DNA of 64,000 bases from an uncultured Gammaproteobacteria bacterium. GTDB lineage: Bacteria; Patescibacteriota; Patescibacteriia; Magasanikbacterales; GCA-002688135. The DNA lies in NCBI GenBank assembly GCA_964536205.1, contig CAZHVT010000006.1, forward strand, positions 8,623 to 72,622, read 5' to 3'. Positions 9,459 to 63,948 of the stretch are shown here, one piece after another. The notes under the pieces are model-generated. The model saw only the letters and a program-made list of their open reading frames with translations. It had not been told where the DNA came from and did no database searches. Every line of letters starts with the position of its first letter. Position 1 is the first letter of the stretch. The translations under genes and the position numbers were made by a program.

Positions 9459-9953
9459 CTACAGATCTCTGTTGAATCTTTCCACTCGATCTTCAAGAAT
9501 GCGATAAAGATGTGTGGGTGTTAGGCCTTGGATATCTTCGAATTGTTCGAGAATGCTGCATGTTGCATCGAATCGTTCGAGTGCATCTTCGTCATTGATT
9601 TCTGCGCGTGCTGCGTCTATATCGTATTCAACTTCTTCTGTTCCAGCATGTTCGATCATGTCTGCGATTTGCAGGATGGCGAGGCACATTTCTTTGTCCA
9701 TCAAGCCGGCGCTGACAAACATCCATTCCATCTGATCCATTGCGTCTTCGTGTTGAGCTTTACAGGCCTGTGAGACTACAACGCCCATAAACATCCAGCC
9801 CATGAAATCGCATGTGTCCACTTCTTCTCGAGTTAATCCACGTGACCAGAATTCTGGATCATGTTGTGTAGGATCAGATTCTTCGTCTGAAGTCAGCAGG
9901 GCCAACAGTTTTTCAAAAAATTGTTCACTTAGGTCTTCGGTTTTCAGATCCAT
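9459..9953 (-). CDS. small highly acidic hypothetical protein (164 aa, rich in D/E)
   Basis: The ORF is trimmed to the ATG at 9953, with an SD (aggaga) 6 nt upstream. Its composition is strongly acidic. Confidence 0.55.
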   Translation of the reverse strand: MDLKTEDLSEQFFEKLLALLTSDEESDPTQHDPEFWSRGLTREEVDTCDFMGWMFMGVVVSQACKAQHEDAMDQMEWMFVSAGLMDKEMCLAILQIADMIEHAGTEEVEYDIDAARAEINDEDALERFDATCSILEQFEDIQGLTPTHLYRILEDRVERFNRDL

Positions 9954-10092
9954 CAATTTTCTCCTTTAACTGGTTTTTTTGACCAAGTGCACTATAGTAG
10001 CATATTTTTAGTGTGCGTCAAGGGTGTTGGTATTTTTGGTGGTCATATGTTGTCTGATAAATTATACTGTATTTTGTCTATAATGTAGTTGT

Positions 10093-13157: not shown

Positions 13158-13258
13158 ATAATTACCAATGACCAATGTCGGAGTCTCCCTAGGATGAGAG
13201 ACGAATCTATGGATTATCGCTTTACGATACATTCATTTGAAAATTGAAAATTAGTTCT

Positions 13259-13330
13259 GGTCCCATCGTCTAGTGGTTAGGACGCATGGTTCTCATCCAT
13301 GTAACGGGGGTTCGATTCCCCCTGGGATCA
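13259..13330 (+). tRNA. tRNA-Glu (anticodon CUC)
   Basis: Cloverleaf folded by hand: 7-bp acceptor stem (GGTCCCA / TGGGATC), anticodon stem CATGG/CCATG with loop TTCTCAT, T-arm GGGGG-TTCGATT-CCCCC, discriminator A. No encoded CCA. Confidence 0.75.
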
Positions 13331-13560
13331 TGAAATCACATTTACCTTACTGGTTGATTTGATATGTATACGATGCATAACGGGGGTTCCACCCCACTTG
13401 CTCGTTCCTCGCTCGGGGGTATCGTAGAGATTCCCCCTGGGATCATGAAATCAAATTTACCTTACCGGTTGATTTGATATGTATACGATGCATAACGGGG
13501 GTTCCACCCCACTTGCTCGTTCCTCGCTCGGGGGTATCGTAGAGATTCTCCCTGGGATCA
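13331..13560 (+). repeat. two 115-bp tandem direct repeats, each ending with a copy of the tRNA-Glu 3' end (gattccccctgggatca) and carrying a 39-nt insertion in the T-loop-like part
   Basis: The units 13331-13445 and 13446-13560 differ at 4 positions. Removing caccccacttgctcgttcctcgctcgggggtatcgtaga restores the tRNA T-arm exactly. Confidence 0.8.
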
Positions 13561-13605
13561 TGAAGAAAAGGCATCCGAGTAGGATGTTTTTTTGAAGGAG
13601 ACATT

Positions 13606-14643
13606 TTGATCATTATAATTGCCCAACTTGTTTTGATGAGTGAATGCAATACATACAGCGATTGTCCTGACGGGTTAGTATGCGTTGAGAATGTGTGCGT
13701 GAAACCGAAACCATTATGTGGATCCTGTTGGAAATCTGTGCAGTGTATGCCGAATTATAAGTGTTTGGGGTACGATGGTTTGGGTGGGATGTGTTTGCCG
13801 ATGGGGTGTGTTGTCGATGATGATTGTCCTCTTGGCATGAAGTGCATTTCGATTGGTGACGGTAATACAGCTTGCTGGGTGAAGCCTGCGATGGATGTGT
13901 GTGTTGGTACGACAATTTGGAAGGCTAATACGTGCGGCATGTTATATACTCCGTTTATCTACTGCGGAATGACAGACAAAACTTGCGTGCATGGAGATTG
14001 TTGTAAACGAGATTGCACAACGAAGCAGTGCGGAGAAGATGGGTGTTATGGGTCTTGTGGTATGTGTGGGATGGGGCAGGCTTGTATCGATCATAACTGC
14101 ACGACATGCATTCCGGGTGTGATTGATTATGAGATGTGTGGCAGTGTGTGCTCTGCGAAAATGCGAGTTTGTGATGTGAATGGTTCGTGGGGATTGTGGT
14201 CTACATGTAAGGATGATGCACTGTGTACGCCGGCTGATGGATTTCCAATTGAGTGTCATGCAGCAGAATGTCGTCCAGGTCATTCGTTTTCTGATTCGTG
14301 TGGAAATTGTGGAACGATGTCTATAATTTGTAATGGCGAATGTCGATGGGAAAGTGGAAGTTGTGTAAATGAAGGCCTGTGCAAAATTGGAGAAACTGCA
14401 CCTTGTGAGCAAAATGGAAAGCGAACCTGCACTGATATGTGTCGATGGAGTAAGTGCATTGTTTCTGCAGATGCAGCACCTCGAATTGTTGCAGAAGATC
14501 ATGTTATCAAAATTCCAATTCAGCGTCCGAAACCAAAAGCATCTGTAAAAGTTGTTCAAGGTTGTCAGATGTCACATCATAGTCATCAGTTTTCGATCAT
14601 TATTTTATTGTGTTGTTTGTTGGTTTTACATACTCGGCATTAA
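13606..14643 (+). CDS. cysteine-rich repeat protein (about 17% Cys; CxxDxDCPxGxxC-type modules) with a hydrophobic C-terminal tail
   Basis: Long ORF with an AAGGAG SD 5 nt before a TTG start (the first ATG is 10 codons downstream). Cys spacing is repeated throughout. Confidence 0.55.
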   Translation: MIIIIAQLVLMSECNTYSDCPDGLVCVENVCVKPKPLCGSCWKSVQCMPNYKCLGYDGLGGMCLPMGCVVDDDCPLGMKCISIGDGNTACWVKPAMDVCVGTTIWKANTCGMLYTPFIYCGMTDKTCVHGDCCKRDCTTKQCGEDGCYGSCGMCGMGQACIDHNCTTCIPGVIDYEMCGSVCSAKMRVCDVNGSWGLWSTCKDDALCTPADGFPIECHAAECRPGHSFSDSCGNCGTMSIICNGECRWESGSCVNEGLCKIGETAPCEQNGKRTCTDMCRWSKCIVSADAAPRIVAEDHVIKIPIQRPKPKASVKVVQGCQMSHHSHQFSIIILLCCLLVLHTRH

Positions 14644-34373: not shown

Positions 34374-34434
34374 TCTTTTCTGTGTATAAGTAGGCATATC
34401 TGTTTGATGTGTTGTGTTATACTAATTTTTCATG

Positions 34435-34459
34435 GGTCCCGGCCTTCGCCGGGATGACA
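34435..34459. repeat. copy of the dispersed hairpin repeat (tcccggccttcgccgggatgac)
   Basis: 1 mismatch to the arm at 63922-63943. Confidence 0.6.
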
Positions 34460-34470
34460 ATTTATAGCTT

Positions 34471-50696: not shown

Positions 50697-50725
50697 TTGA
50701 CAAAACCGGTTTTTTGTGTTATTAT
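50697..50725 (+). promoter_or_regulatory. promoter A: TTGACA-17-TATTAT, with AACCGGTT palindromes at 50663-50670 and within the spacer
   Basis: Consensus hexamers. Near-identical to the promoter at 51470-51498 and related to the one at 60962-60995. Confidence 0.55.
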
Positions 50726-50826
50726 GTTCGTAATTCTTGGGTGTATATCCAAGTCGTTGCCGAAAGGTAATTAGGGTGTTTGCTTGCGCATCTTCATTGC
50801 AAGTGTTCTTTTAAAGGAGTAGATGT

Positions 50827-51387
50827 ATGTCTACGGGAATGATGGGCTTCATGCCGAGTAATTGTCAGAACTGCAGTGATACCCGATGTGGTGGGAATTG
50901 TCATTCCTCCTATGATTTGGGTCCGTGCCCCATCTGTTGTCGTACGCGCTGTAATGACGCGAGTCACCTGACTGTTTTGCAGTTCGGAGGCGAAGGCGGT
51001 GGCGGAGGGAAAAGCATTGTGAGTCCCGGTGGTCCAACAGGAAAGCGTCCGGAGAAGTGGTGGAAACTCGAGAGTTGGTGGTATCGCTTTGTGAATTTCT
51101 GCATCGTCAAGGGGCCCAATGAGATGTCTCTCATGATGAGCAATCACGGCGATCGAGATCCGCTCAAGGCCACACGGGTTCAGTTCTTCATCGCGCCAGC
51201 GGGAAAGGAGCAGGAAGCTTGTGGGATGCTGTGCCAGATCAAAGGACTGACTCACAGCGAGTTCCTTCATGGATGGGAGATTACTGGTAGTGCGCTGATC
51301 AATGGCACCGGCGATATCGATGCTGCGGTTGACTTCCACGCCACCTACAACCACCAGACGCGAATTGGCACACTAATATTCATGTAA
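50827..51387 (+). CDS. small protein family member 1 (186 aa): Cys-rich N-terminus + Gly-rich linker + conserved ~110-aa C-terminal domain (WW..WW...IVKGPNEM...)
   Basis: SD ggagtag. GC ~52% versus ~38% for its neighbours. Paralog of 51567..51998. Confidence 0.6.
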   Translation: MSTGMMGFMPSNCQNCSDTRCGGNCHSSYDLGPCPICCRTRCNDASHLTVLQFGGEGGGGGKSIVSPGGPTGKRPEKWWKLESWWYRFVNFCIVKGPNEMSLMMSNHGDRDPLKATRVQFFIAPAGKEQEACGMLCQIKGLTHSEFLHGWEITGSALINGTGDIDAAVDFHATYNHQTRIGTLIFM

Positions 51388-51407
51388 TCGACGGTACGCC
51401 GTCACAA

Positions 51408-51445
51408 AGACCCTCGCATGGGATATGCGGGGGTCTAGTTTTTTA
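51408..51445 (+). terminator. rho-independent terminator (agaccctcgcatgggatatgcgggggtct + T-run), duplicated at 52012-52049
   Basis: Read directly. Confidence 0.7.
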
Positions 51446-51469
51446 TATAATTTAGCTACTGCTCTGGGG

Positions 51470-51498
51470 TTGACAGATGCGGCTTTTTCTGCTATTAT
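51470..51498 (+). promoter_or_regulatory. promoter B: TTGACA-17-TATTAT (paralogous copy of promoter A)
   Basis: Identical hexamers and the same gtt after the -10. The downstream UTR element gtgttcttttaa..ggagtagaYgtATGtct is conserved. Confidence 0.55.
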
Positions 51499-51566
51499 GT
51501 TGTTATCTTTGAGTGTTCTTTTAACCGCACTGGTGTATTCCAGTGCTTGCACATAGGAGTAGACGT

Positions 51567-51998
51567 ATGTCTAACGAAACCCCTTTTTGGATGACGGAAG
51601 AAGGTAAGTCTGGGATCGCGGCCATGAAAGAGAGTCCTACTGCGAAGCCTGCCCAAGATGGTCAGCGCTGGTGGGTTAAGCAAAACTGGTGGGAGACCTG
51701 TAAGAGTTTTCATATCGTTGGAGAAGGTCCCAATGAGATGAAGCTGTCGATGTCACTGTTTGGTCCGCGCGACGTGCAGGCTTGCACCACGGTGTATTTC
51801 AAGATTCGTCCCACATCTGGTCCGGATCTTTCTCACCGGCGGTTTGTTTGTCTCATCGACGGCATCCGTCATTCTGCCTTTCCTGATACGTGGGAATTGA
51901 CCGGCCTCGCGCATGTTGGTGCACGGTGGATTCCGTTCACCGCTGATTACTCGATCCCCAACAAGAGAACCGGGATGATCATTCTCAACCCGAGCTAA
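51567..51998 (+). CDS. small protein family member 2 (143 aa): low-complexity N-terminus + the same conserved C-terminal domain (WWVKQNWW...IVGEGPNEM...)
   Basis: The ORF is trimmed to the ATG at 51567 to match the conserved SD/start context of member 1. Confidence 0.55.
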   Translation: MSNETPFWMTEEGKSGIAAMKESPTAKPAQDGQRWWVKQNWWETCKSFHIVGEGPNEMKLSMSLFGPRDVQACTTVYFKIRPTSGPDLSHRRFVCLIDGIRHSAFPDTWELTGLAHVGARWIPFTADYSIPNKRTGMIILNPS

Positions 51999-52011
51999 GG
52001 CTCACGAACAA

Positions 52012-52049
52012 AGACCCTCGCAGGGATATGCGGGGGTCTAGTTTTTTTT
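52012..52049 (+). terminator. rho-independent terminator (second copy)
   Basis: agaccctcgcagggatatgcgggggtct + T8. Confidence 0.7.
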
Positions 52050-52053
52050 ACAA

Positions 52054-57605: not shown

Positions 57606-57671
57606 ACATCGTAATTATACGTCTTTTGTCGGGTGTTGACAATGATCCACAATTCTGTTATTGTATCCTCA

Positions 57672-58040
57672 TCCACGTTGAAGACCGCGTTATTCTAGTG
57701 TAGGTAGCGTATGGCGTCAGCAACATGTTCTTGAAAACGTATTCAACTTTCACACCATAAAAACTTGAGGGTACGGCCGAATTCGAGCCGATGGATGATC
57801 CTCATCAAAATTTTATTGATCCGTGGCCACGGATGGTGGAGTCGACTTGTACTGACTCAGAGAGTTTGACCGGCCAATCAATCACGTTGGAACGAATACG
57901 GAAACCTGAATGTGAACGGCAACTTCAGTTGTGCGTACAAAATACATAGGGAGGCTGCGCGAGTAGCCTCCCGACCCAATCAATTGAGAGTCGCAAGCGA
58001 CTTTCTAGTGGAGACGCCCAGCGTCTCCCTTTTTTATCCA
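57672..58040 (+). other. GC-rich (~50%) ORF-poor intergenic block with a TTGACA-17-TATTGT promoter (57636-57665) and two terminator-like hairpins; candidate ncRNA or small-protein locus
   Basis: No ORF >52 aa on either strand. Hairpins gggaggctgcgcgagtagcctccc and ggagacgcccagcgtctcc + T6. Composition is atypical for an AT-rich genome. Confidence 0.25.
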
Positions 58041-58092: not shown

Positions 58093-60762
58093 TTAGGCTG
58101 TTGCTTTTGAAGTCTTTTTCATGACGGCCGCGACTCCGAGTTTGATTTTTTCGTTTTCGGCATCAATTTTTACTGTGTCTCCGGATGTTACATTTCCTTT
58201 GACAATCTCCATTGCAAGGGGATCGAGGATTTCTGTTTGGATTAATCGCTTGAGTGGGCGAGCGCCGAATGTAACATCATATCCTCGTTCTGCTAATACA
58301 TCTTTTACTGCATCGGAACATGTGACGGTGATTTTCTTTTTTGCTAATCGCTCCACTACGCGCGCTAATTGTAACTCAACAATTTCCTTGATGTTTTCTT
58401 TTGAGAGGGGATGGAAGATAATTACTTCATCCAATCGATTCAAGAATTCTGGCTTGAACTCTTCTTTCAATCCTTCACGAACGCGATCTTCCATGCGCTT
58501 TTCCAAATCATCTTCTTCTTCCGCGCCGAATCCAAGTGTGCCGCGCTCTGATAATCGCAAGATATCTTCTGATCCAACATTGGATGTCATGATGATAATA
58601 GTGTTTTTGAAGTTTACAACTCGGCCTTTTGAATCGGTTAAACGTCCATCTTCAAGAATTTGTAGTAACATATTAAATACGTCCGGATGCGCTTTTTCAA
58701 TTTCATCAAATAATACAACAGAATAAGGTTTGCGTCGGATGATTTCTGTAATTTGTCCACCTTCTTCATGGCCGACATAGCCAGGAGGGGAGCCAGTCAT
58801 TTTTGCAACAGAATGTTTTTCCATGTATTCAGACATGTCGATACGAACGAGAGATTCCTCATCATTGAACATGAATTCTGCGAGGGCTCGTGCTAATTCA
58901 GTTTTTCCGACTCCAGTAGGACCCAAGAAAATGAATGAACCAATTGGACGATTCTCCTCGGCGATTCCCGATCGTGAACGTCGCACTGCATTTGCCACAG
59001 CAGTCACTGCTTCGGATTGTCCGATCACACGACTATCAATTTCTTTTTCCATGCGTGCTAGTTTTTTCAATTCTTCCTCAAGCATCTTTGAAACAGGAAT
59101 TCCTGTCCATCGCGCAACAACAGATGCAATATCCTCATCATTCACTTCTTCTTTCAAAATGCGTCGCGAGATTTGTGTTTTTTGTAGATCTTTTTGTGTG
59201 GCTAAAATTTTGCGTTCCAATTCTGGAATTGTGCTATATCGAATTTCCGCTACTTTTTGCAAATCAGAATGACGTTCGGCAATTTCCGCTTTTTGTCGTG
59301 CTTGTTCTAACTTCTTTTTGAAATCACGAATTTTCGAAATGATTTTCTTTTCAGAATTCCATTGGATTTCTAAAGCTGAACTTTTCTCTTTTAATTCTGC
59401 AAGTTCACGCTCAATCTTTTTAAGACGATCGCCAGCTTCTTTATCTTTTTCTTTTTCAAGCGCTTTTTTCTCAATTTCCAATCGCATTTGATCTCGTTTC
59501 ATTCTGTCCAAATCATCTGGCATAGAATCGATTTCCATACGCAATGCCGATGCTGCTTCATCAATACAATCAATGGCTTTGTCTGGAAGTTGTCGATCTG
59601 AAATATATCGATCTGATAATTCCGCAGCTTTAATAACTGCGGCGTCTGTAATACGCACACCATGATGGACTTCGTATTTTTCTTTAATTCCACGCAAAAT
59701 CGCAATGGTGTCATCAACAGAAGATTCCTGCACCATCACTGGCTGGAATCGACGCTCAAGTGCCGCATCCTTTTCGATATATTTTTGATATTCTTTGATG
59801 GTTGTTGCGCCGATCGCATGTAGTTCTCCGCGAGCGAGAGCTGGCTTTAAGAGATTCGCTGCATCAATCGCGCCTTCTGCAGATCCCGCGCCAACTAAGG
59901 TATGCAACTCATCAATAAAGAGAATGATATTCCCCTCAGATTTATTGATTTCCTTCAAAACAGCCTTGAGGCGATCTTCAAATTCACCGCGGAATTTTGT
60001 TCCAGCCACAAGAGATCCCAAATCCAATTGGATGAGTTCTTTGTCTAACAATGATTCTGGCACGTCTCCATCTGCAATTCGCTGCGCTAAACCTTCTGCG
60101 ACGGCGGTTTTTCCCACACCCGGTTCACCGATGAGCACAGGGTTGTTTTTTGTTCGGCGTGTTACTACTTGCATCACGCGGCGAATTTCCATATCTCGTC
60201 CAATCACAGGATCGAGCTTTTCTTGTTTTGCTAATTGTGTGAGATTGATACCGTATTTTTCGAGTGCTTGGAATTTTGATTCTGGTTCTGGTGAATCTAC
60301 TTTTTGATTGCCGCGGATTTCTACCAGTGTTTTTTGTACATCGCTATATCGCAATCCGAAATGTCGAAGCAATCCATGAATTGAATTCCGAGATGACAAA
60401 AATCCGAGCAAAATATGTTCAGTTGAAATATATTCATCTTTCATTTTGTGTGCCTCCTGTCCAGAGGCTCCGAGAATACTCATGGTTTCGGGCGAGAGAT
60501 AAATTTGCCCGACATTGAATGAGTTATTTGAATAACCTTGTTGTTTTGGTAAACGTCCTAAAAATCTATTGATGGATGATCGCATGGCGTTAATATCGAT
60601 GCCGAGTTTTGCGACGGTCGCGACCACCGTAGAATTTGATTGTTCGATCAGAGCCTTAAAAAGATGAATCGGCTCAATTTGAGGCTGACCATTTTCTATT
60701 GAAATTTGATGCGCGTGTTGGAGCGCTTCTTGGGATTTGGTAGTAAAATTATTTGGAATCAT
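58093..60762 (-). CDS. clpB: ATP-dependent chaperone ClpB (Hsp100 disaggregase)
   Basis: N-domain, two AAA+ modules (GEPGVGKTA; GPTGVGKTE) and the middle coiled-coil. 889 aa. Confidence 0.95.
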
Positions 60763-60774
60763 AATCCTTTGATT

Positions 60775-60796
60775 CCCCTCCCTATAAAGGGAGGGG
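60775..60796 (-). promoter_or_regulatory. perfect 8-bp hairpin in the clpB 5' UTR pairing the SD-like GGGAGGGG with CCCCTCCC (candidate SD-sequestering RNA thermometer)
   Basis: cccctccc-tataaa-gggagggg 12 nt upstream of the ATG. A second G/C hairpin lies at 60800-60826. Confidence 0.35.
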
Positions 60797-60869
60797 TTAG
60801 GGGAGGGTGTAATTTAACCCCCTCCTGACTTCCCCCTGACAGAGGAGGAACATTTCTATAATGTCTGTT

Positions 60870-60896
60870 TTAGCACTCTCTACCTGTGAGTGCTAA
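60870..60896. promoter_or_regulatory. CIRCE operator (HrcA binding site) TTAGCACTC-N9-GAGTGCTAA upstream of clpB, overlapping a minus-strand TTGACT-17-TACATT promoter (60895-60923)
   Basis: Exact match to the CIRCE consensus inverted repeat. Positioned immediately downstream of the -10, as in classical HrcA-controlled promoters. Confidence 0.8.
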
Positions 60897-60961
60897 TGTA
60901 ACGGATATCCACAAAAAAGTCAAGTATATATAGAATATAGCACAATATCGCGGAAAAGGCA

Positions 60962-60995
60962 TTGACAAACCCCGTTTTTTGTGTCATTTTATTAT
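60962..60995 (+). promoter_or_regulatory. promoter C: TTGACAAACCCCGTTTTTTGTGT(catt)TTATTAT, a diverged copy of promoters A/B with a 4-nt insertion
   Basis: 25 of 27 nt identical to promoter A through the spacer. It drives the tandem small-protein pair. Confidence 0.4.
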
Positions 60996-61042
60996 GTTGT
61001 TCTATCACACATGAATGTTACTATTGAGAGAGGAGGACAAAA

Positions 61043-61321
61043 TTGAGTGCTGTTTCAGATAGCTTACTGGTGAGTTTTCATGAACTTGTATATGTGAAGG
61101 TCAGCTGGAGAGAGGAGGATTTTGACCCTCTTAGTTCAGCGCCATCAGATTGTGCAAAAGAGTTCCGATCGTGGCTTGAGATCCACGAAATCACAGCCGT
61201 ACTTTCAACCAGCGAAACTGACTGCTGGGGAGGTTTATCTGGTTTTTATAAGCCAGCTGATGCTACAACAATCAAGAATTGGCTCAGTAGACACGAAGCA
61301 ACCATTAAGGAGGAGGGTTAA
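61043..61321 (+). CDS. small hypothetical protein (92 aa, TTG start), tandem paralog 1
   Basis: AGGAGGA SD 5 nt before the TTG. Shares a C-terminal W(L)xxx(E/G)ATIK motif and a CW motif with the next gene. Confidence 0.5.
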   Translation: MSAVSDSLLVSFHELVYVKVSWREEDFDPLSSAPSDCAKEFRSWLEIHEITAVLSTSETDCWGGLSGFYKPADATTIKNWLSRHEATIKEEG

Positions 61322-61322
61322 A

Positions 61323-61643
61323 TTGAGCACTTCATTTAACATAGTTCCGCTTGATAGAGACATCATTGAGATTACCCTGACTACTCAAGGAATAGGGAGG
61401 AGCTATACTCAGGCGAGTCTACTTGAGTACTTCAAGAAGTGGGTCGCAGATTCTGATATCAGACCGGAAATGAGCCCCGCGATCAGTACTGCAAGTACGG
61501 GAAATGATGTCTTTTGCTGGTCGAAGTTCAAGAAGGAGGACGCCAACCGAGTCATTTCTTGGCTGATGAACAACGGCGCGACGATCAAGAATGATTTCAG
61601 AGCCAATCGTGGCCCCACTCACAAGCGACTATTTTCCGATTAG
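61323..61643 (+). CDS. small hypothetical protein (106 aa, TTG start), tandem paralog 2
   Basis: aaggaggagggt SD. The TTG lies 1 nt after the upstream stop. The ORF track's 61122 start lies in the upstream gene. Confidence 0.5.
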   Translation: MSTSFNIVPLDRDIIEITLTTQGIGRSYTQASLLEYFKKWVADSDIRPEMSPAISTASTGNDVFCWSKFKKEDANRVISWLMNNGATIKNDFRANRGPTHKRLFSD

Positions 61644-61651
61644 AGAAAGAA

Positions 61652-61686
61652 CCCTGCACCTACGTGGTGCAGGGCTTTTCTTTTTC
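61652..61686 (+). terminator. rho-independent terminator (ccctgcacc-tacg-tggtgcaggg + T-run)
   Basis: Read directly. Confidence 0.7.
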
Positions 61687-61712
61687 TACCTTTTAGAGTA
61701 AGATCGGCGACT

Positions 61713-62480
61713 ATGATCAACTTCATGGGAGCACGATTAGATCCCTTTCCAACCGTCGTTATTGAGAATCGATTGGTTGATTTTTTATGTGGGGATGATA
61801 CGAAATTAATTACAACTCCAAATCCGGAGATGTTAATTTTGGGACAAAAGAGTGAGGATTTACAGACCGTTTTGCATCAGTCAGATTTGGGATGTGTTGA
61901 TGGAACTGGAGTTGTTGGGGTTTTGAAAATGAAGGGAATTCATGGTGTTGAGCGCGTGACTGGGGTTGATACGATGTGGACGTTAGCAAAGCTGTGTAGC
62001 GAGCAGAATAAAAAAATAATGTTGGTTGGAGCGCGTCCTGGGGTTGCTGCAGAGGCGAAACAGATGTTATTAGCGAAGTATCCCAATCTACATATTCATT
62101 CGTATGTGGGGCCGAATATGTCATACAAAATTGAGGGGACGAGTCCGTTTGCAAAAGACGATGAAGAGGTTTTGCAAGAAATCGAGAATTTCCAGCCGGA
62201 TGTTTTAGCGATTGCACTTGGAGCAGGGAAGCAGGAAATCTGGCTCAACAAGTATAAGGATCGATTTTCAAGTGTGAAAATTTTGATTGGGATTGGCGGG
62301 GCTTTTGATATGATTAGTGGTGCATTACCTCGTGCACCTTTGTTTTTCCGGAAGATTGGATTAGAATGGATGTGGCGATTGCTTTTACAGCCGACTCGCA
62401 TTGCACGCATTATGCGCGCGGTTGTGGTATTTCCACTGACAGCTATTAAACATGATATTTCCTATGAGCGTAAGAGTTAG
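61713..62480 (+). CDS. WecB/TagA/CpsF-family glycosyltransferase (GT26)
   Basis: Family-typical TPNPEMLI...GIGGAFDMISG...WMWRLLLQP motifs. Confidence 0.7.
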   Translation: MINFMGARLDPFPTVVIENRLVDFLCGDDTKLITTPNPEMLILGQKSEDLQTVLHQSDLGCVDGTGVVGVLKMKGIHGVERVTGVDTMWTLAKLCSEQNKKIMLVGARPGVAAEAKQMLLAKYPNLHIHSYVGPNMSYKIEGTSPFAKDDEEVLQEIENFQPDVLAIALGAGKQEIWLNKYKDRFSSVKILIGIGGAFDMISGALPRAPLFFRKIGLEWMWRLLLQPTRIARIMRAVVVFPLTAIKHDISYERKS

Positions 62481-63875: not shown

Positions 63876-63948
63876 GTCATCCCGGCGTAGGCCGGGCTCC
63901 ATCGTATTTAACAGCATGGATCCCGGCCTACGCCGGGATGACGTTTTT
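63876..63948. repeat. 22-bp perfect inverted repeat (cgtcatcccggcgtaggccggg / cccggcctacgccgggatgacg) with 24-nt spacer, followed by T5; it terminates gltX, and each arm is a copy of the dispersed hairpin repeat
   Basis: Read directly. Each arm also contains the small ccggc-NNNN-gccgg hairpin. Confidence 0.75.

What the first reader, a model, noticed from the sequence alone, without database searches (positions are those of the whole stretch)
60962..61686. Third copy of the portable promoter driving a tandem pair of paralogous TTG-initiated miniproteins
The sequence at 60962-60995 (TTGACAAACCCCGTTTTTTGTGTcattTTATTAT) is a diverged copy of promoter A (TTGACAAAACCGGTTTTTTGTGTTATTAT). The same promoter module therefore sits in front of three different small-protein loci. 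It drives two tandem paralogs (92 and 106 aa) that both start with TTG behind strong SDs and share CW and W(L)xxx(E/G)ATIK motifs. The pair is also GC-elevated (~46%). This looks like a family of mobile expression cassettes.
Basis: seen in the sequence. Interest (0 to 1): 0.55.

Follow-up and report, generated by a model that had tools for sequence, protein, structure and literature searches.

The report
Fast-evolving orphan miniprotein operon, ordinary promoter
A small two-gene operon for two related orphan miniproteins sits between clpB and wecG in a Parcubacteria genome; a related genome has it at the same place, so it is inherited and very fast-evolving, not a mobile cassette, and its promoter resembles "promoter A" only in the -35 box and spacer.

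Summary
The sequence facts hold. 60962-60984 matches promoter A (50697) at 21 of 23 bases. Two TTG ORFs (92 and 106 aa) follow strong Shine-Dalgarno sites, and their C-terminal halves are homologous (BLASTP E 5e-5; shuffle z 8.5).

- **Inherited, not mobile.** A related Parcubacteria MAG (neighbouring proteins 70-96% identical) has the same unit at the same place: -35 box, Shine-Dalgarno site, an 88-aa homologue of P1, and a terminator, between CIRCE-clpB and wecG.
- **The -10 box.** TATTAT lies 22 nt from the -35 box. The working -10 is probably CATTTT at 17 nt, because the relative has TATTTT there.
- **The promoter resemblance.** It covers 28 nt, or 42 nt with a gap, which is below the published "mobile promoter" criterion. 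The same 19 specified bases occur in 88 unrelated genomes, and 49 of those are followed directly by a -10 box.
- **No mobility features.** There are no flanking repeats, no mobility genes and no viral matches.
- **GC content.** At 45.9% it is unremarkable for this window.

The proteins have no credible relatives among billions of sequences. P1 diverges from its orthologue at about the neutral rate, yet the reading frame, ribosome site and terminator are all kept. P2 is a lineage-specific extra copy with a predicted small alpha/beta fold. Function is unknown and interest is low.

The parts
60962..60967 (+). -35 hexamer TTGACA of the miniprotein promoter. It is the last DNA block that still aligns with the related genome.
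   Evidence: The alignment with L092/L100 is conserved through GGCATTGACAA and diverges after it.
60968..60984 (+). 17-nt spacer AACCCCGTTTTTTGTGT. It is 15/17 identical to the spacer of promoter A (50703-50719) but only 7/17 identical to the spacer of the orthologous promoter in the relative. It ends in the TG of an extended -10.
60985..60990 (+). Probable -10 hexamer CATTTT at the canonical 17-nt spacing. The relative has TATTTT at the same position.
   Evidence: Alignment A4. The L100 promoter is TTGACA-17-TATTTT. Activity was not tested.
60990..60995 (+). It lies 22 nt from the -35 box, so it is out of register. It matches the -10 of promoter A only if a 5-nt insertion (CATTT) is assumed.
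   Evidence: (not called by the scan).
61026..61037 (+). Shine-Dalgarno region GAGAGAGGAGGA of P1, with the GGAGG core 6 nt before the TTG.
61043..61321 (+). P1: 92 aa, TTG start, pI 4.65. It is the orthologue of the 88-aa protein P0016 of the related MAG.
   Evidence: best of six frames, LLR +0.13 per codon; z 8.9 over the full length.
61307..61317 (+). Shine-Dalgarno region AAGGAGGAGGG of P2, lying inside the 3' end of P1.
   Evidence: 18-nt repeat of the P1 start region.
61323..61643 (+). P2: 106 aa, TTG start, pI 8.85. It is a divergent tandem paralogue of P1 and is absent from the relative. Predicted topology is strand-strand-helix-strand-strand-helix-strand. Public gene calls either omit it or call it as a 173-aa ORF.
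61647..61684 (+). Intrinsic terminator: stem CCCTGCACC/GGTGCAGGG plus a T tail. The tail and downstream DNA are conserved in the relative, whose stem sequence differs but still pairs.
60870..60923 (-). Context: the divergent clpB promoter (TTGACT 60923-60918, TACATT 60900-60895) followed by a perfect CIRCE operator TTAGCACTC-N9-GAGTGCTAA (60870-60896). The whole block is conserved in the relative.

Best explanation
This is an ordinary chromosomal transcription unit, vertically inherited, that encodes a lineage-restricted and very fast-evolving small cytoplasmic protein. In this genome the gene has been tandemly duplicated.

Shown:
- The unit comprises a sigma-70-type promoter (TTGACA, a 17-nt spacer ending in TG, then CATTTT), two cistrons and an intrinsic terminator.
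- The promoter lies back to back with the CIRCE-controlled clpB promoter.
- Each cistron has a strong Shine-Dalgarno site and a TTG start. The two are 1 nt apart.
- A related Parcubacteria genome has the same unit at the same place, with one gene.

Inferred:
- P2 arose by a duplication that carried the ribosome-binding site and the TTG start with it.
- The two cistrons are co-transcribed and probably translationally coupled.
- The products are small soluble alpha/beta proteins (P1 acidic, P2 basic). They may pair with each other. This is speculative.
- Only the C-terminal helix motif F-x-x-x-DA-x-x-I/V-x-x-WL is clearly constrained.

The resemblance to promoter A is confined to the -35 box and the spacer. 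It combines a generic strong-promoter design with a residual similarity. That residue may reflect a short copying or gene-conversion event in this lineage, or it may be chance. The biochemical function is unknown. The near-neutral rate of protein change suggests a weakly constrained accessory role, or one in some evolutionary conflict, rather than a housekeeping role.
For: - **Synteny and orthology.** L092 and L100 (Parcubacteria MAG NZCD01000015.1) carry fmt-def-priA-ligB-451aa-clpB-[88-aa ORF]-wecG-gltX in the same order as the window. Neighbouring proteins are 70-96% identical.
- **Sharp boundaries.** DNA alignment stops at 60968, just after the -35 box, and resumes at 61672 in the terminator tail.
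- **P1 homologue.** The 88-aa ORF aligns with P1 over its full length (z 8.9, p 0.0003). Its match to P2 is weaker (z 5.2).
- **Promoter register.** The relative's promoter is TTGACA-17-TATTTT, where the window has CATTTT.
- **Evolutionary rate.** Four-fold-degenerate sites of 8 flanking genes are 50.8% identical, a distance of 0.80. A neutral simulation at that distance gives 21.7 +/- 4.1% amino-acid identity and keeps a 92-codon frame open in 0.5% of runs. The observed identity is 26-29%, and the frame, Shine-Dalgarno site and terminator are intact in both genomes.
- **Coding signal.** The annotated frames score best of the six. AlphaFold2 on the P2 sequence alone gives pLDDT 71 and pTM 0.63, and all five models agree.
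- **Duplication.** The two start regions are an 18-nt direct repeat.
- **Orphan status.** Only self hits and the one orthologue were found among 5.8 billion proteins. The scan of 1.84 billion representatives added only long repeat proteins, judged to be summed weak matches. Pfam, PHROGs, PADLOC, NCBIfam and PDB gave nothing.
- **Generic promoter design.** TTGACAAA-N4-GTTTTTTGTGT occurs in 88 unrelated genomes. In 49 of them it is followed directly by TAnnnT, against a background frequency of 1.6%. One Clostridia MAG carries the exact 23-mer of promoter A.
Against: - There are no expression, transcription-start or peptide data, so promoter use, co-transcription and translation are all inferred.
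- P2's score with host codon usage is below the 5th percentile of host gene pieces (-0.08 against -0.003), and its third-codon GC is atypical.
- The P1 structure prediction is poor (pLDDT 52).
- Only two species carry the family, and every contig of each species is identical in sequence across this locus. No population-level dN/dS test was therefore possible.
- The 15/17 spacer identity with promoter A is not shared by other promoter-like sites in the window or by the orthologous promoter. Simple vertical descent leaves it unexplained.
- CATTTT matches only 3 of 6 consensus positions.
Confidence: 0.65

Rival explanations
1. Promoter reuse, a narrower form of the first reader's idea. In the window's lineage, a tract of about 30-40 bp of promoter A (-35 box, spacer and perhaps the -10 box) was copied or gene-converted into the pre-existing promoter of the P1 locus. 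The cassette itself did not move. This is compatible with the best explanation.
For: - The match is 26/28, plus 9/9 after a 5-nt gap, and no shuffle reaches it.
- Other TTGACA-N17-TAnnnT sites in the window have unrelated spacers.
- The orthologous promoter in the relative has a spacer only 7/17 identical, which is the neutral level. The identity with promoter A is therefore younger than the species split, or maintained by selection.
- My rough estimate, allowing for the promoter consensus, gives p of about 0.002-0.03 within the window (inference).
Against: - The same 19 specified bases recur independently in 88 unrelated genomes, and 24 of them are as close to promoter A in the N4 positions as copy 3 is.
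- The tract is shorter than any accepted criterion.
- The T-run and TGTG elements are low in complexity and typical of promoters.
- The direction of copying cannot be shown, because the relative's promoter for the P3 orthologue lies just outside the DNA that could be fetched.
Confidence: 0.35
2. Mobile expression cassettes. Promoter, miniprotein genes and terminator form a portable unit that inserts at different genomic sites.
For: - Three promoter-like copies lie in front of small orphan genes, each with its own terminator.
- The P3/P4 cassettes are clearly richer in GC (53%) than the rest of the window.
Against: - The P1 cassette, and also the P3 cassette, sit at the same chromosomal positions in a relative that has diverged by 0.8 substitutions per neutral site.
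- There are no terminal inverted repeats, no target-site duplications, and no transposase or integrase (and the ORF lists).
- Nothing matched in viral contigs.
- P1/P2 are unrelated to P3/P4, and the terminators differ.
- No further copy was found in 81 kb of this genome.
Confidence: 0.05
3. One or both ORFs are not functional protein genes. They could be chance or decaying reading frames on a transcript that acts as RNA, or on one that has no function.
For: - Protein divergence from the orthologue is close to the neutral expectation.
- P2 has atypical codon usage.
- P2 is absent from the relative, and two of the three public gene calls for this species omit it.
- No relatives are known.
Against: - Only 0.5% of neutrally evolved copies keep the frame open, yet both species keep a frame of the same length with a strong Shine-Dalgarno site.
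- Homology between P1 and P2 and between P1 and Q1 is detectable at the protein level even though the DNA does not align.
- P2 folds confidently for a single-sequence prediction.
- There is no Rfam match.
Confidence: 0.12
4. The C-terminal module of P2 derives from a roughly 53-aa beta-strand repeat found in long secreted proteins, many of which carry a type IX secretion tail. The repeat consensus is PAIavdssGNFVItWqdnrngdsDIYAQRYssnGaalGsNFkVN.
For: - Nine of the 13 non-self hits in the exhaustive search belong to this repeat family.
- An HMM built from 82 of its repeats scores P2 at 22 bits (P 6e-9 for a single comparison). None of 20,000 shuffles exceeded 11 bits, and the alignment is a gap-free 47-residue stretch.
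- hhalign gives 96% probability.
- The C-terminal half of P2 has a third-codon GC of 0.62.
Against: - Every single stretch scores 19 bits or less, with a library E-value of 100 or more. The significance comes from summing repeats, and Ig, ankyrin and Flg_new repeat proteins reach it in the same way.
- P1 and the orthologue Q1 are homologous to the same module of P2 but do not match the repeat at all.
- The model puts a helix where the repeat has its DIYAQRY strand.
- After correcting for the roughly 1e6-1e7 families screened (my estimate), the match is borderline.
Confidence: 0.1
5. P1 and P2 form a toxin-antitoxin-like pair, with an acidic first gene, a basic second gene and coupled translation.
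For: The gene sizes, order, pI values (4.65 and 8.85) and the 1-nt spacing resemble type II modules.
Against: - The two proteins are paralogues of each other.
- The relative has only the P1-type gene.
- Pfam, NCBIfam and PADLOC give no match.
- The predicted fold matches no toxin fold.
Confidence: 0.04

Closest known systems
Putative mobile promoters / promoter reuse in prokaryotes (Matus-Garcia, Nijveen and van Passel 2012; PMC3575422)
   Same: Similar upstream sequences stand in front of non-homologous genes within one genome, and no insertion sequence is involved.
   Different: The shared tract is 28 nt (42 nt with a gap) rather than 50 nt or more. It covers only the -35 box, the spacer and part of the -10 region. 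The promoter position is ancestral, because the orthologous promoter in a relative sits at the same place. Much of the shared sequence is generic promoter consensus.
Strong sigma-70 promoters with an extended -10 (TGn) or a -16 TRTG element and a T-rich spacer, as known from Firmicutes-type promoters (my own knowledge)
   Same: It has a perfect TTGACA, a 17-nt spacer, and TGTG immediately before the -10 position. The same 19 specified bases are followed by a -10 box in 49 unrelated genomes.
   Different: Here the hexamer in register is the weak CATTTT. The consensus-like TATTAT is displaced by 5 nt.
Lineage-specific orphan (ORFan) small-protein genes and tandem paralogue pairs in bacteria, including the Candidate Phyla Radiation (CPR)
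   Same: It has no detectable relatives outside one narrow clade. It is short and evolves quickly. It carries its own promoter and terminator and sits between housekeeping genes.
   Different: Nothing categorical. The notable points are the near-neutral protein divergence with a preserved frame, and the duplication that carried the ribosome site and the TTG start along with it.
Small alpha/beta folds with strand-strand-helix-strand-strand-helix-strand topology (SUI1/eIF1/YciH, ribosomal protein S6 and other ferredoxin-like plaits)
   Same: The predicted secondary-structure order of P2 matches. The best Foldseek hits are eIF1/SUI1 and S6, with TM of about 0.5.
   Different: No hit reaches E 0.001. 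There is no sequence match to the SUI1 Pfam family. The model has only moderate confidence, and the P1 model is poor.

Membership tests
Putative mobile promoter (PMP, PMC3575422) | [quoted passage not shown] | tested here: not met
   The ungapped match is 26/28. With a 5-nt gap it is 35 of 37 aligned positions over 42 columns. There is no similarity further upstream or downstream.
Putative mobile promoter (PMP, PMC3575422) | The downstream genes are not paralogous | tested here: met
   P1 and P2 against P3 and P4 give z from -0.4 to 1.8, not significant.
Sigma-70-type promoter | A -35 and a -10 hexamer separated by 16-18 nt | tested here: inconclusive
   TTGACA is 6/6. At 17 nt the hexamer is CATTTT (3/6) with TG before it. 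TATTAT is at 22 nt, and the consensus scan does not call the site. The relative has TATTTT at 17 nt.
Sigma-70-type promoter | Transcription starts downstream of the -10 box | not testable with these tools
   No transcriptome or start-site data are available.
Mobile element (insertion sequence or MITE-like cassette) | Terminal inverted repeats, target-site duplication, or a transposase or integrase | tested here: not met
   No flanking repeats were found. The neighbours are clpB and wecG. The position is conserved in the relative.
Tandem paralogue pair | Significant protein similarity between adjacent genes on the same strand | tested here: met
   BLASTP E 5e-5. Smith-Waterman z 8.5 for the whole proteins and 10.1 for the C-terminal halves. 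The start regions form an 18-nt repeat.
Type II toxin-antitoxin module | Homology to a known toxin or antitoxin family, and conservation of the pair | tested here: not met
   Pfam, NCBIfam and PADLOC give no hits. The relative has a single gene. The two proteins are paralogues.
Roughly 53-aa beta repeat of secreted proteins, many with type IX secretion tails (no curated Pfam family matched the repeat) | All family members match the repeat profile over the whole unit, including the DIYAQRY strand | tested here: not met
   P2 scores 22 bits but lacks the central strand motif. P1 gives no hit and Q1 scores -1.2 bits. Single stretches have library E-values of 100 or more.
SUI1/eIF1-like or ferredoxin-like alpha/beta fold | Significant structural match of a confident model | tested here: inconclusive
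Intrinsic (Rho-independent) terminator | A GC-rich hairpin followed by a T run | tested here: met
   The hairpin at 61652-61674 has 9 pairs (7 GC), followed by CTTTTCTTTT. In the relative the stem sequence differs but still pairs, and the tail is conserved.

The most novel reading that the evidence does not exclude
Unrelated, fast-evolving orphan small-protein genes (P3/P4 and P1/P2) in this Parcubacteria lineage have been brought under one promoter design by short-tract copying. This would form a small co-regulated set of highly expressed accessory proteins, perhaps involved in the episymbiotic lifestyle or in phage conflict. The promoter spacer, which is palindromic in copy 1 (AAAACCGGTTTT), would serve as a shared operator.
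Probability: 0.15. Interest if true: 0.5.

Novelty: new member of a known kind. Interest (0 to 1): 0.25.

Why it matters
The main value is corrective.

- **Annotation.** The locus is mis-annotated in public assemblies. P1 is called from an internal GTG as 83 aa. P2 is either missed or called as a 173-aa ORF that overlaps P1.
- **Method.** A "repeated promoter" read by eye can be mostly convergent promoter consensus.
- **Biology.** The modest biological interest is a clean example of a small gene whose protein sequence drifts at about the neutral rate while its frame, ribosome site, promoter position and terminator are all kept, together with a lineage-specific duplication. If promoter copying were proven, it would be a small documented case of promoter reuse in a reduced genome of the Candidate Phyla Radiation (CPR).

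Tried and rejected
- **Internal duplication within each miniprotein** (for example AKEFRSWLEIHEITAV against ATTIKNWLSRHEATIK). Not significant: p 0.09 for P1 and 0.86 for P2.
- **Relationship of P1/P2 to P3/P4.** None found.
- **Known families.** Pfam, PHROGs, PADLOC, NCBIfam and PDB sequence searches gave nothing above noise.
- **Exhaustive phmmer search.** All 13 non-self hits are long repeat proteins whose scores are sums of weak stretches. I treat them as artefacts, apart from the unresolved P2-only resemblance to one beta repeat.
- **Phage or viral origin.** No viral contig carries the promoter, P1/P2 or P3.
- **RNA element.** There is no Rfam match in 60700-61760.
- **Diversity-generating retroelement.** The two C-terminal halves are not similar at the DNA level, and I saw no reverse-transcriptase gene among the neighbours. 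This was by inspection, not a dedicated search.
- **Population variation for dN/dS.** All contigs of each species are identical across this locus.
- **More distant WecG loci (L093-L097).** They do not keep the clpB synteny and hold no family member.
- **Whole-genome count of the motif.** Not possible. The source genome was not found in the species-representative collection, and only 17 kb beyond the window could be fetched. That DNA holds no further copy.
- **The relative's promoter for the P3 orthologue.** It lies just beyond the DNA that could be fetched.
- **Start-codon survey.** It was too noisy to say more than that TTG starts behind strong Shine-Dalgarno sites also occur at other genes, for example 9459-9956 and 13606-14643.
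Full report
**What is in the sequence**

The degenerate motif TTGACAAAMCCSGTTTTTTGTGT occurs exactly twice in the 64-kb window, at 50697 and 60962, with 0.00 matches expected from shuffles. The repeat finder adds a looser third member at 51467-51501; identities to the 50694 copy are 100, 77 and 86%.

Downstream lie two ORFs on the same strand, 61043-61321 (92 aa, P1) and 61323-61643 (106 aa, P2). Both start with TTG, each 6 nt after a GGAGG core, and they are 1 nt apart. An intrinsic terminator follows at 61652-61684. The two translation-start regions are themselves an 18-nt direct repeat, GAGGAGGACAAAATTGAG and GAGGAGGGTTAAATTGAG. This indicates that the duplication carried the ribosome site and the unusual start codon with it.

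**Are the two proteins paralogues?**

Yes, but only in part.
- BLASTP gives 32% identity over 47 residues, E 5e-5.
- Smith-Waterman against shuffles gives z 8.5. All of the signal comes from the C-terminal halves (z 10.1); the N-terminal halves are not significantly similar.
- An internal repeat that I suspected within each protein is not significant.
- P1 and P2 are unrelated to the proteins behind the other two promoter copies. Those two, P3 (50827-51387) and P4 (51567-51998), are clear paralogues of each other (z 26). They also share a 5' leader motif and terminators that are 94% identical.

So there are two gene families behind three promoter copies, not three different loci.

**Are they genes?**

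Using host codon usage, the annotated frame is the best of six for both ORFs. P1 scores +0.13 per codon and P2 scores -0.08, against a host mean of 0.33 (sd 0.19). P2 has an atypical third-codon GC of 0.56, rising to 0.62 in its C-terminal half, against 0.36 for host genes.

The pair's overall GC of 45.9% is not remarkable. The window mean is 42.1% (sd 3.1), and 13% of 600-nt windows are as high.

AlphaFold2 run without an alignment gives a poor model for P1 (pLDDT 52). For P2 it gives a consistent, moderately confident one (pLDDT 71, pTM 0.63). The P2 topology is strand-strand-helix-strand-strand-helix-strand.

Public gene calls disagree. JGI starts P1 at an internal GTG (83 aa) and omits P2. 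One ENA assembly calls P1 as 92 aa and omits P2. Logan calls a 173-aa ORF (61122-61643) that overlaps P1 out of frame. That ORF's N-terminal extension is contradicted by the P1 orthologue described below.

**The decisive evidence: a related genome**

A scan for relatives of the downstream WecG protein found contig CEPV01212498.1, stored as L092 (85% identity). Looking up its small ORF (P0016, annotated 'hypothetical protein CMI52_00745, Parcubacteria group bacterium') gave longer contigs of the same organism, L100-L107.

That genome has the same gene order as the window: fmt, def, priA, ligB, a 451-aa gene, clpB, a small ORF, wecG, gltX. Neighbouring proteins are 70-96% identical.

Between clpB and wecG the relative has one 88-aa ORF with an ATG start and a GGAGGTG Shine-Dalgarno site. 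It aligns with P1 over its whole length (z 8.9, 26-29% identity). Its match to P2 is weaker and confined to the C-terminus (z 5.2). P1 is therefore the orthologue, and P2 is an extra copy that this relative lacks.

At the DNA level the two genomes align at about 87% through the clpB promoter, the CIRCE operator and GGCATTGACAA. They stop aligning right after the -35 box (60968) and resume in the terminator tail (61672). The terminator stems differ in sequence but both still pair.

A transcription unit with the same parts at the same place in both genomes argues against a recently mobile cassette.

**Which -10 box?**

In the relative the promoter is TTGACA, 17 nt, TATTTT. In the window the hexamer at 17 nt is CATTTT (60985-60990), preceded by TG.

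It aligns with the -10 box of promoter A only if a 5-nt insertion is assumed.

I therefore take TTGACA-17-CATTTT with an extended-10 TG as the likely promoter. This is inferred and untested.

**How fast does the gene evolve?**

Four-fold-degenerate sites in eight flanking genes are 50.8% identical, a distance of about 0.80.

A neutral simulation of P1 at that distance gives 21.7 +/- 4.1% amino-acid identity. It keeps the 92-codon frame open in only 0.5% of runs, with substitutions only.

The observed 26-29% identity is barely above neutral. Even so, both species keep an open frame of the same length, a strong Shine-Dalgarno site, a promoter in the same position and a terminator. The residues conserved across P1, P2 and the orthologue cluster in the C-terminal helix: D73, A74, W80, L81, A86 and K89, plus W44.

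I read this as a translated gene with very weak sequence constraint, or one under diversifying selection. A rough dN/dS is about 0.7, against 0.02-0.2 for the neighbours (my estimate from the identities).

**Is the promoter portable?**

For:
- The spacers of copy 1 and copy 3 are 15/17 identical.
- Other TTGACA-N17-TAnnnT sites in the window have unrelated spacers.
- The orthologous promoter's spacer is only 7/17 identical to the window's, which is the neutral level. The identity with promoter A is therefore not old shared ancestry.

Against:
- The 19 specified bases TTGACAAA-N4-GTTTTTTGTGT occur in 88 unrelated genomes (Clostridia, several Candidate Phyla Radiation (CPR) lineages, Desulfobulbus, Poribacteria and others).
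- In 49 of the 88 the motif is followed directly by TAnnnT, against a background frequency of 1.6%.
- In 24 of the 88 the N4 positions are as close to promoter A's as copy 3's are.
- One rabbit-gut Clostridia MAG has the exact 23-mer of promoter A.

The motif is thus a recurrent strong-promoter design: a -35 box, a T-rich spacer and a TGTG element. The shared tract here is 28 nt, or 42 nt with the gap. That is below the 50 nt at 80% identity used to define putative mobile promoters (PMC3575422).

There are no flanking repeats or mobility genes and no viral matches. No further copy occurs in the 17 kb of this genome that could be fetched beyond the window.

I give a short copying or conversion event about 35%, and whole-cassette mobility about 5%.

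**What are the proteins?**

They are orphans.
- Searches of 5.8 billion proteins return only the sequences themselves and the one orthologue.
- The exhaustive scan of 1.84 billion representatives returns 13 other proteins. All are long repeat proteins whose scores are sums of weak stretches: each stretch is 19 bits or less, with a library E-value of 100 or more. They belong to unrelated folds, namely Ig, ankyrin, Flg_new and a roughly 53-aa beta repeat.
- That last repeat does resemble the C-terminal half of P2: 22 bits against an HMM of 82 repeats, with none of 20,000 shuffles above 11 bits.
- However, P1 and the orthologue do not match the repeat. The model places a helix where the repeat has its central strand. 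The match is borderline once the size of the screen is considered. I leave it as an unexplained P2-only resemblance.
- Fold searches against the PDB and viral models give nothing at E 0.001 or better. The best hits are generic small alpha/beta folds (eIF1/SUI1, S6) at TM of about 0.5.
- P1 is acidic (pI 4.65) and P2 is basic (pI 8.85). The idea that they pair with each other is speculation.
- A toxin-antitoxin reading is unlikely, because the two are paralogues and the relative has only one of them.

**Verdict**

The locus is an ordinary, inherited, fast-evolving orphan small-protein operon with a lineage-specific tandem duplicate. Its promoter shares a generic design, and possibly a short copied tract, with promoter A. 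It is a new member of a known kind, and interest is low.

Noticed in passing
window 57636-58036 (+); orthologous stretch L100 6557-7046: A strong promoter (TTGACA-17-TATTGT) is followed by about 370 nt with no ORF over 54 aa, ending in a clean terminator (58010-58035). It lies between the 451-aa gene and the 3' end of clpB. Its 5' part (about 57668-57755) is about 95% identical to the relative, where neutral sites are only 51% identical. RNAalifold predicts 89 pairs, 15 of them with compensatory double changes. The fold z-score is -3.6. There is no Rfam match at E<=1 in either genome and no tmRNA by ARAGORN. It looks like an unclassified structured RNA gene.
   Followed up: partly
window 60870-60923 (- strand): A perfect CIRCE operator (TTAGCACTC-N9-GAGTGCTAA, 60870-60896) abuts the -10 box of the clpB promoter (TTGACT-17-TACATT). 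The block is conserved in the relative. clpB therefore appears to be under HrcA control in this Parcubacteria lineage, and the miniprotein promoter is divergent from it with the two -35 boxes about 39 bp apart.
   Followed up: partly
window 60763-60868: The clpB 5' leader is full of G and C tracts that form hairpins (CCCCTCCC...GGGAGGGG; AGGGAGGGGTTA/TAACCCCCTCCT). It does not align at all with the relative's leader, although the flanks are 85-90% identical. It could be a structure that masks the ribosome site (a thermosensor?).
   Followed up: no
window 50697-52050; L100 1-490: The P3/P4 cassettes are 53% GC. P3 has a Cys-rich N-terminus and a Gly linker, and both have a WW...GPNEM...WE(I/L)TG domain. 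They are tandem paralogues with terminators 94% identical. The relative has a P3 orthologue (58% identical) with a nearly identical terminator at the same position next to fmt. It has no P4; a 130-aa gene on the opposite strand lies there instead. P3 and P4 have no family matches in Pfam, PHROGs, PADLOC or NCBIfam.
   Followed up: partly
window 61108-61124: A second exact copy of GAGAGAGGAGGA lies inside P1, 2 nt before an out-of-frame TTG (61122). This is the start of the 173-aa ORF that one public gene call reports. With GGAGG only 3 nt from the TTG, and given the P1 orthologue, this start is probably spurious.
   Followed up: partly
window 13314-13564, next to tRNA-Glu (13258-13331): A 115-nt unit is repeated in tandem just over two times (98% identical). 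It begins inside the 3' end of the only tRNA gene found in the window.
   Followed up: no
window 34431-34463 and 63915-63947; L100 5075-5148: A short hairpin-forming repeat (CATGG.TCCCGGCCT.CGCCGGGATGAC, 88% identical between the two window copies). One window copy also matches the relative on both strands. It may be a small palindromic intergenic repeat family.
   Followed up: no
L108 (ENA SUTE22-1 scaffold_9), positions corresponding to window 59227: In this otherwise 99.8% identical assembly, clpB is split into two called genes by a run of 10 N. This is an assembly gap, not a real frameshift.
   Followed up: yes
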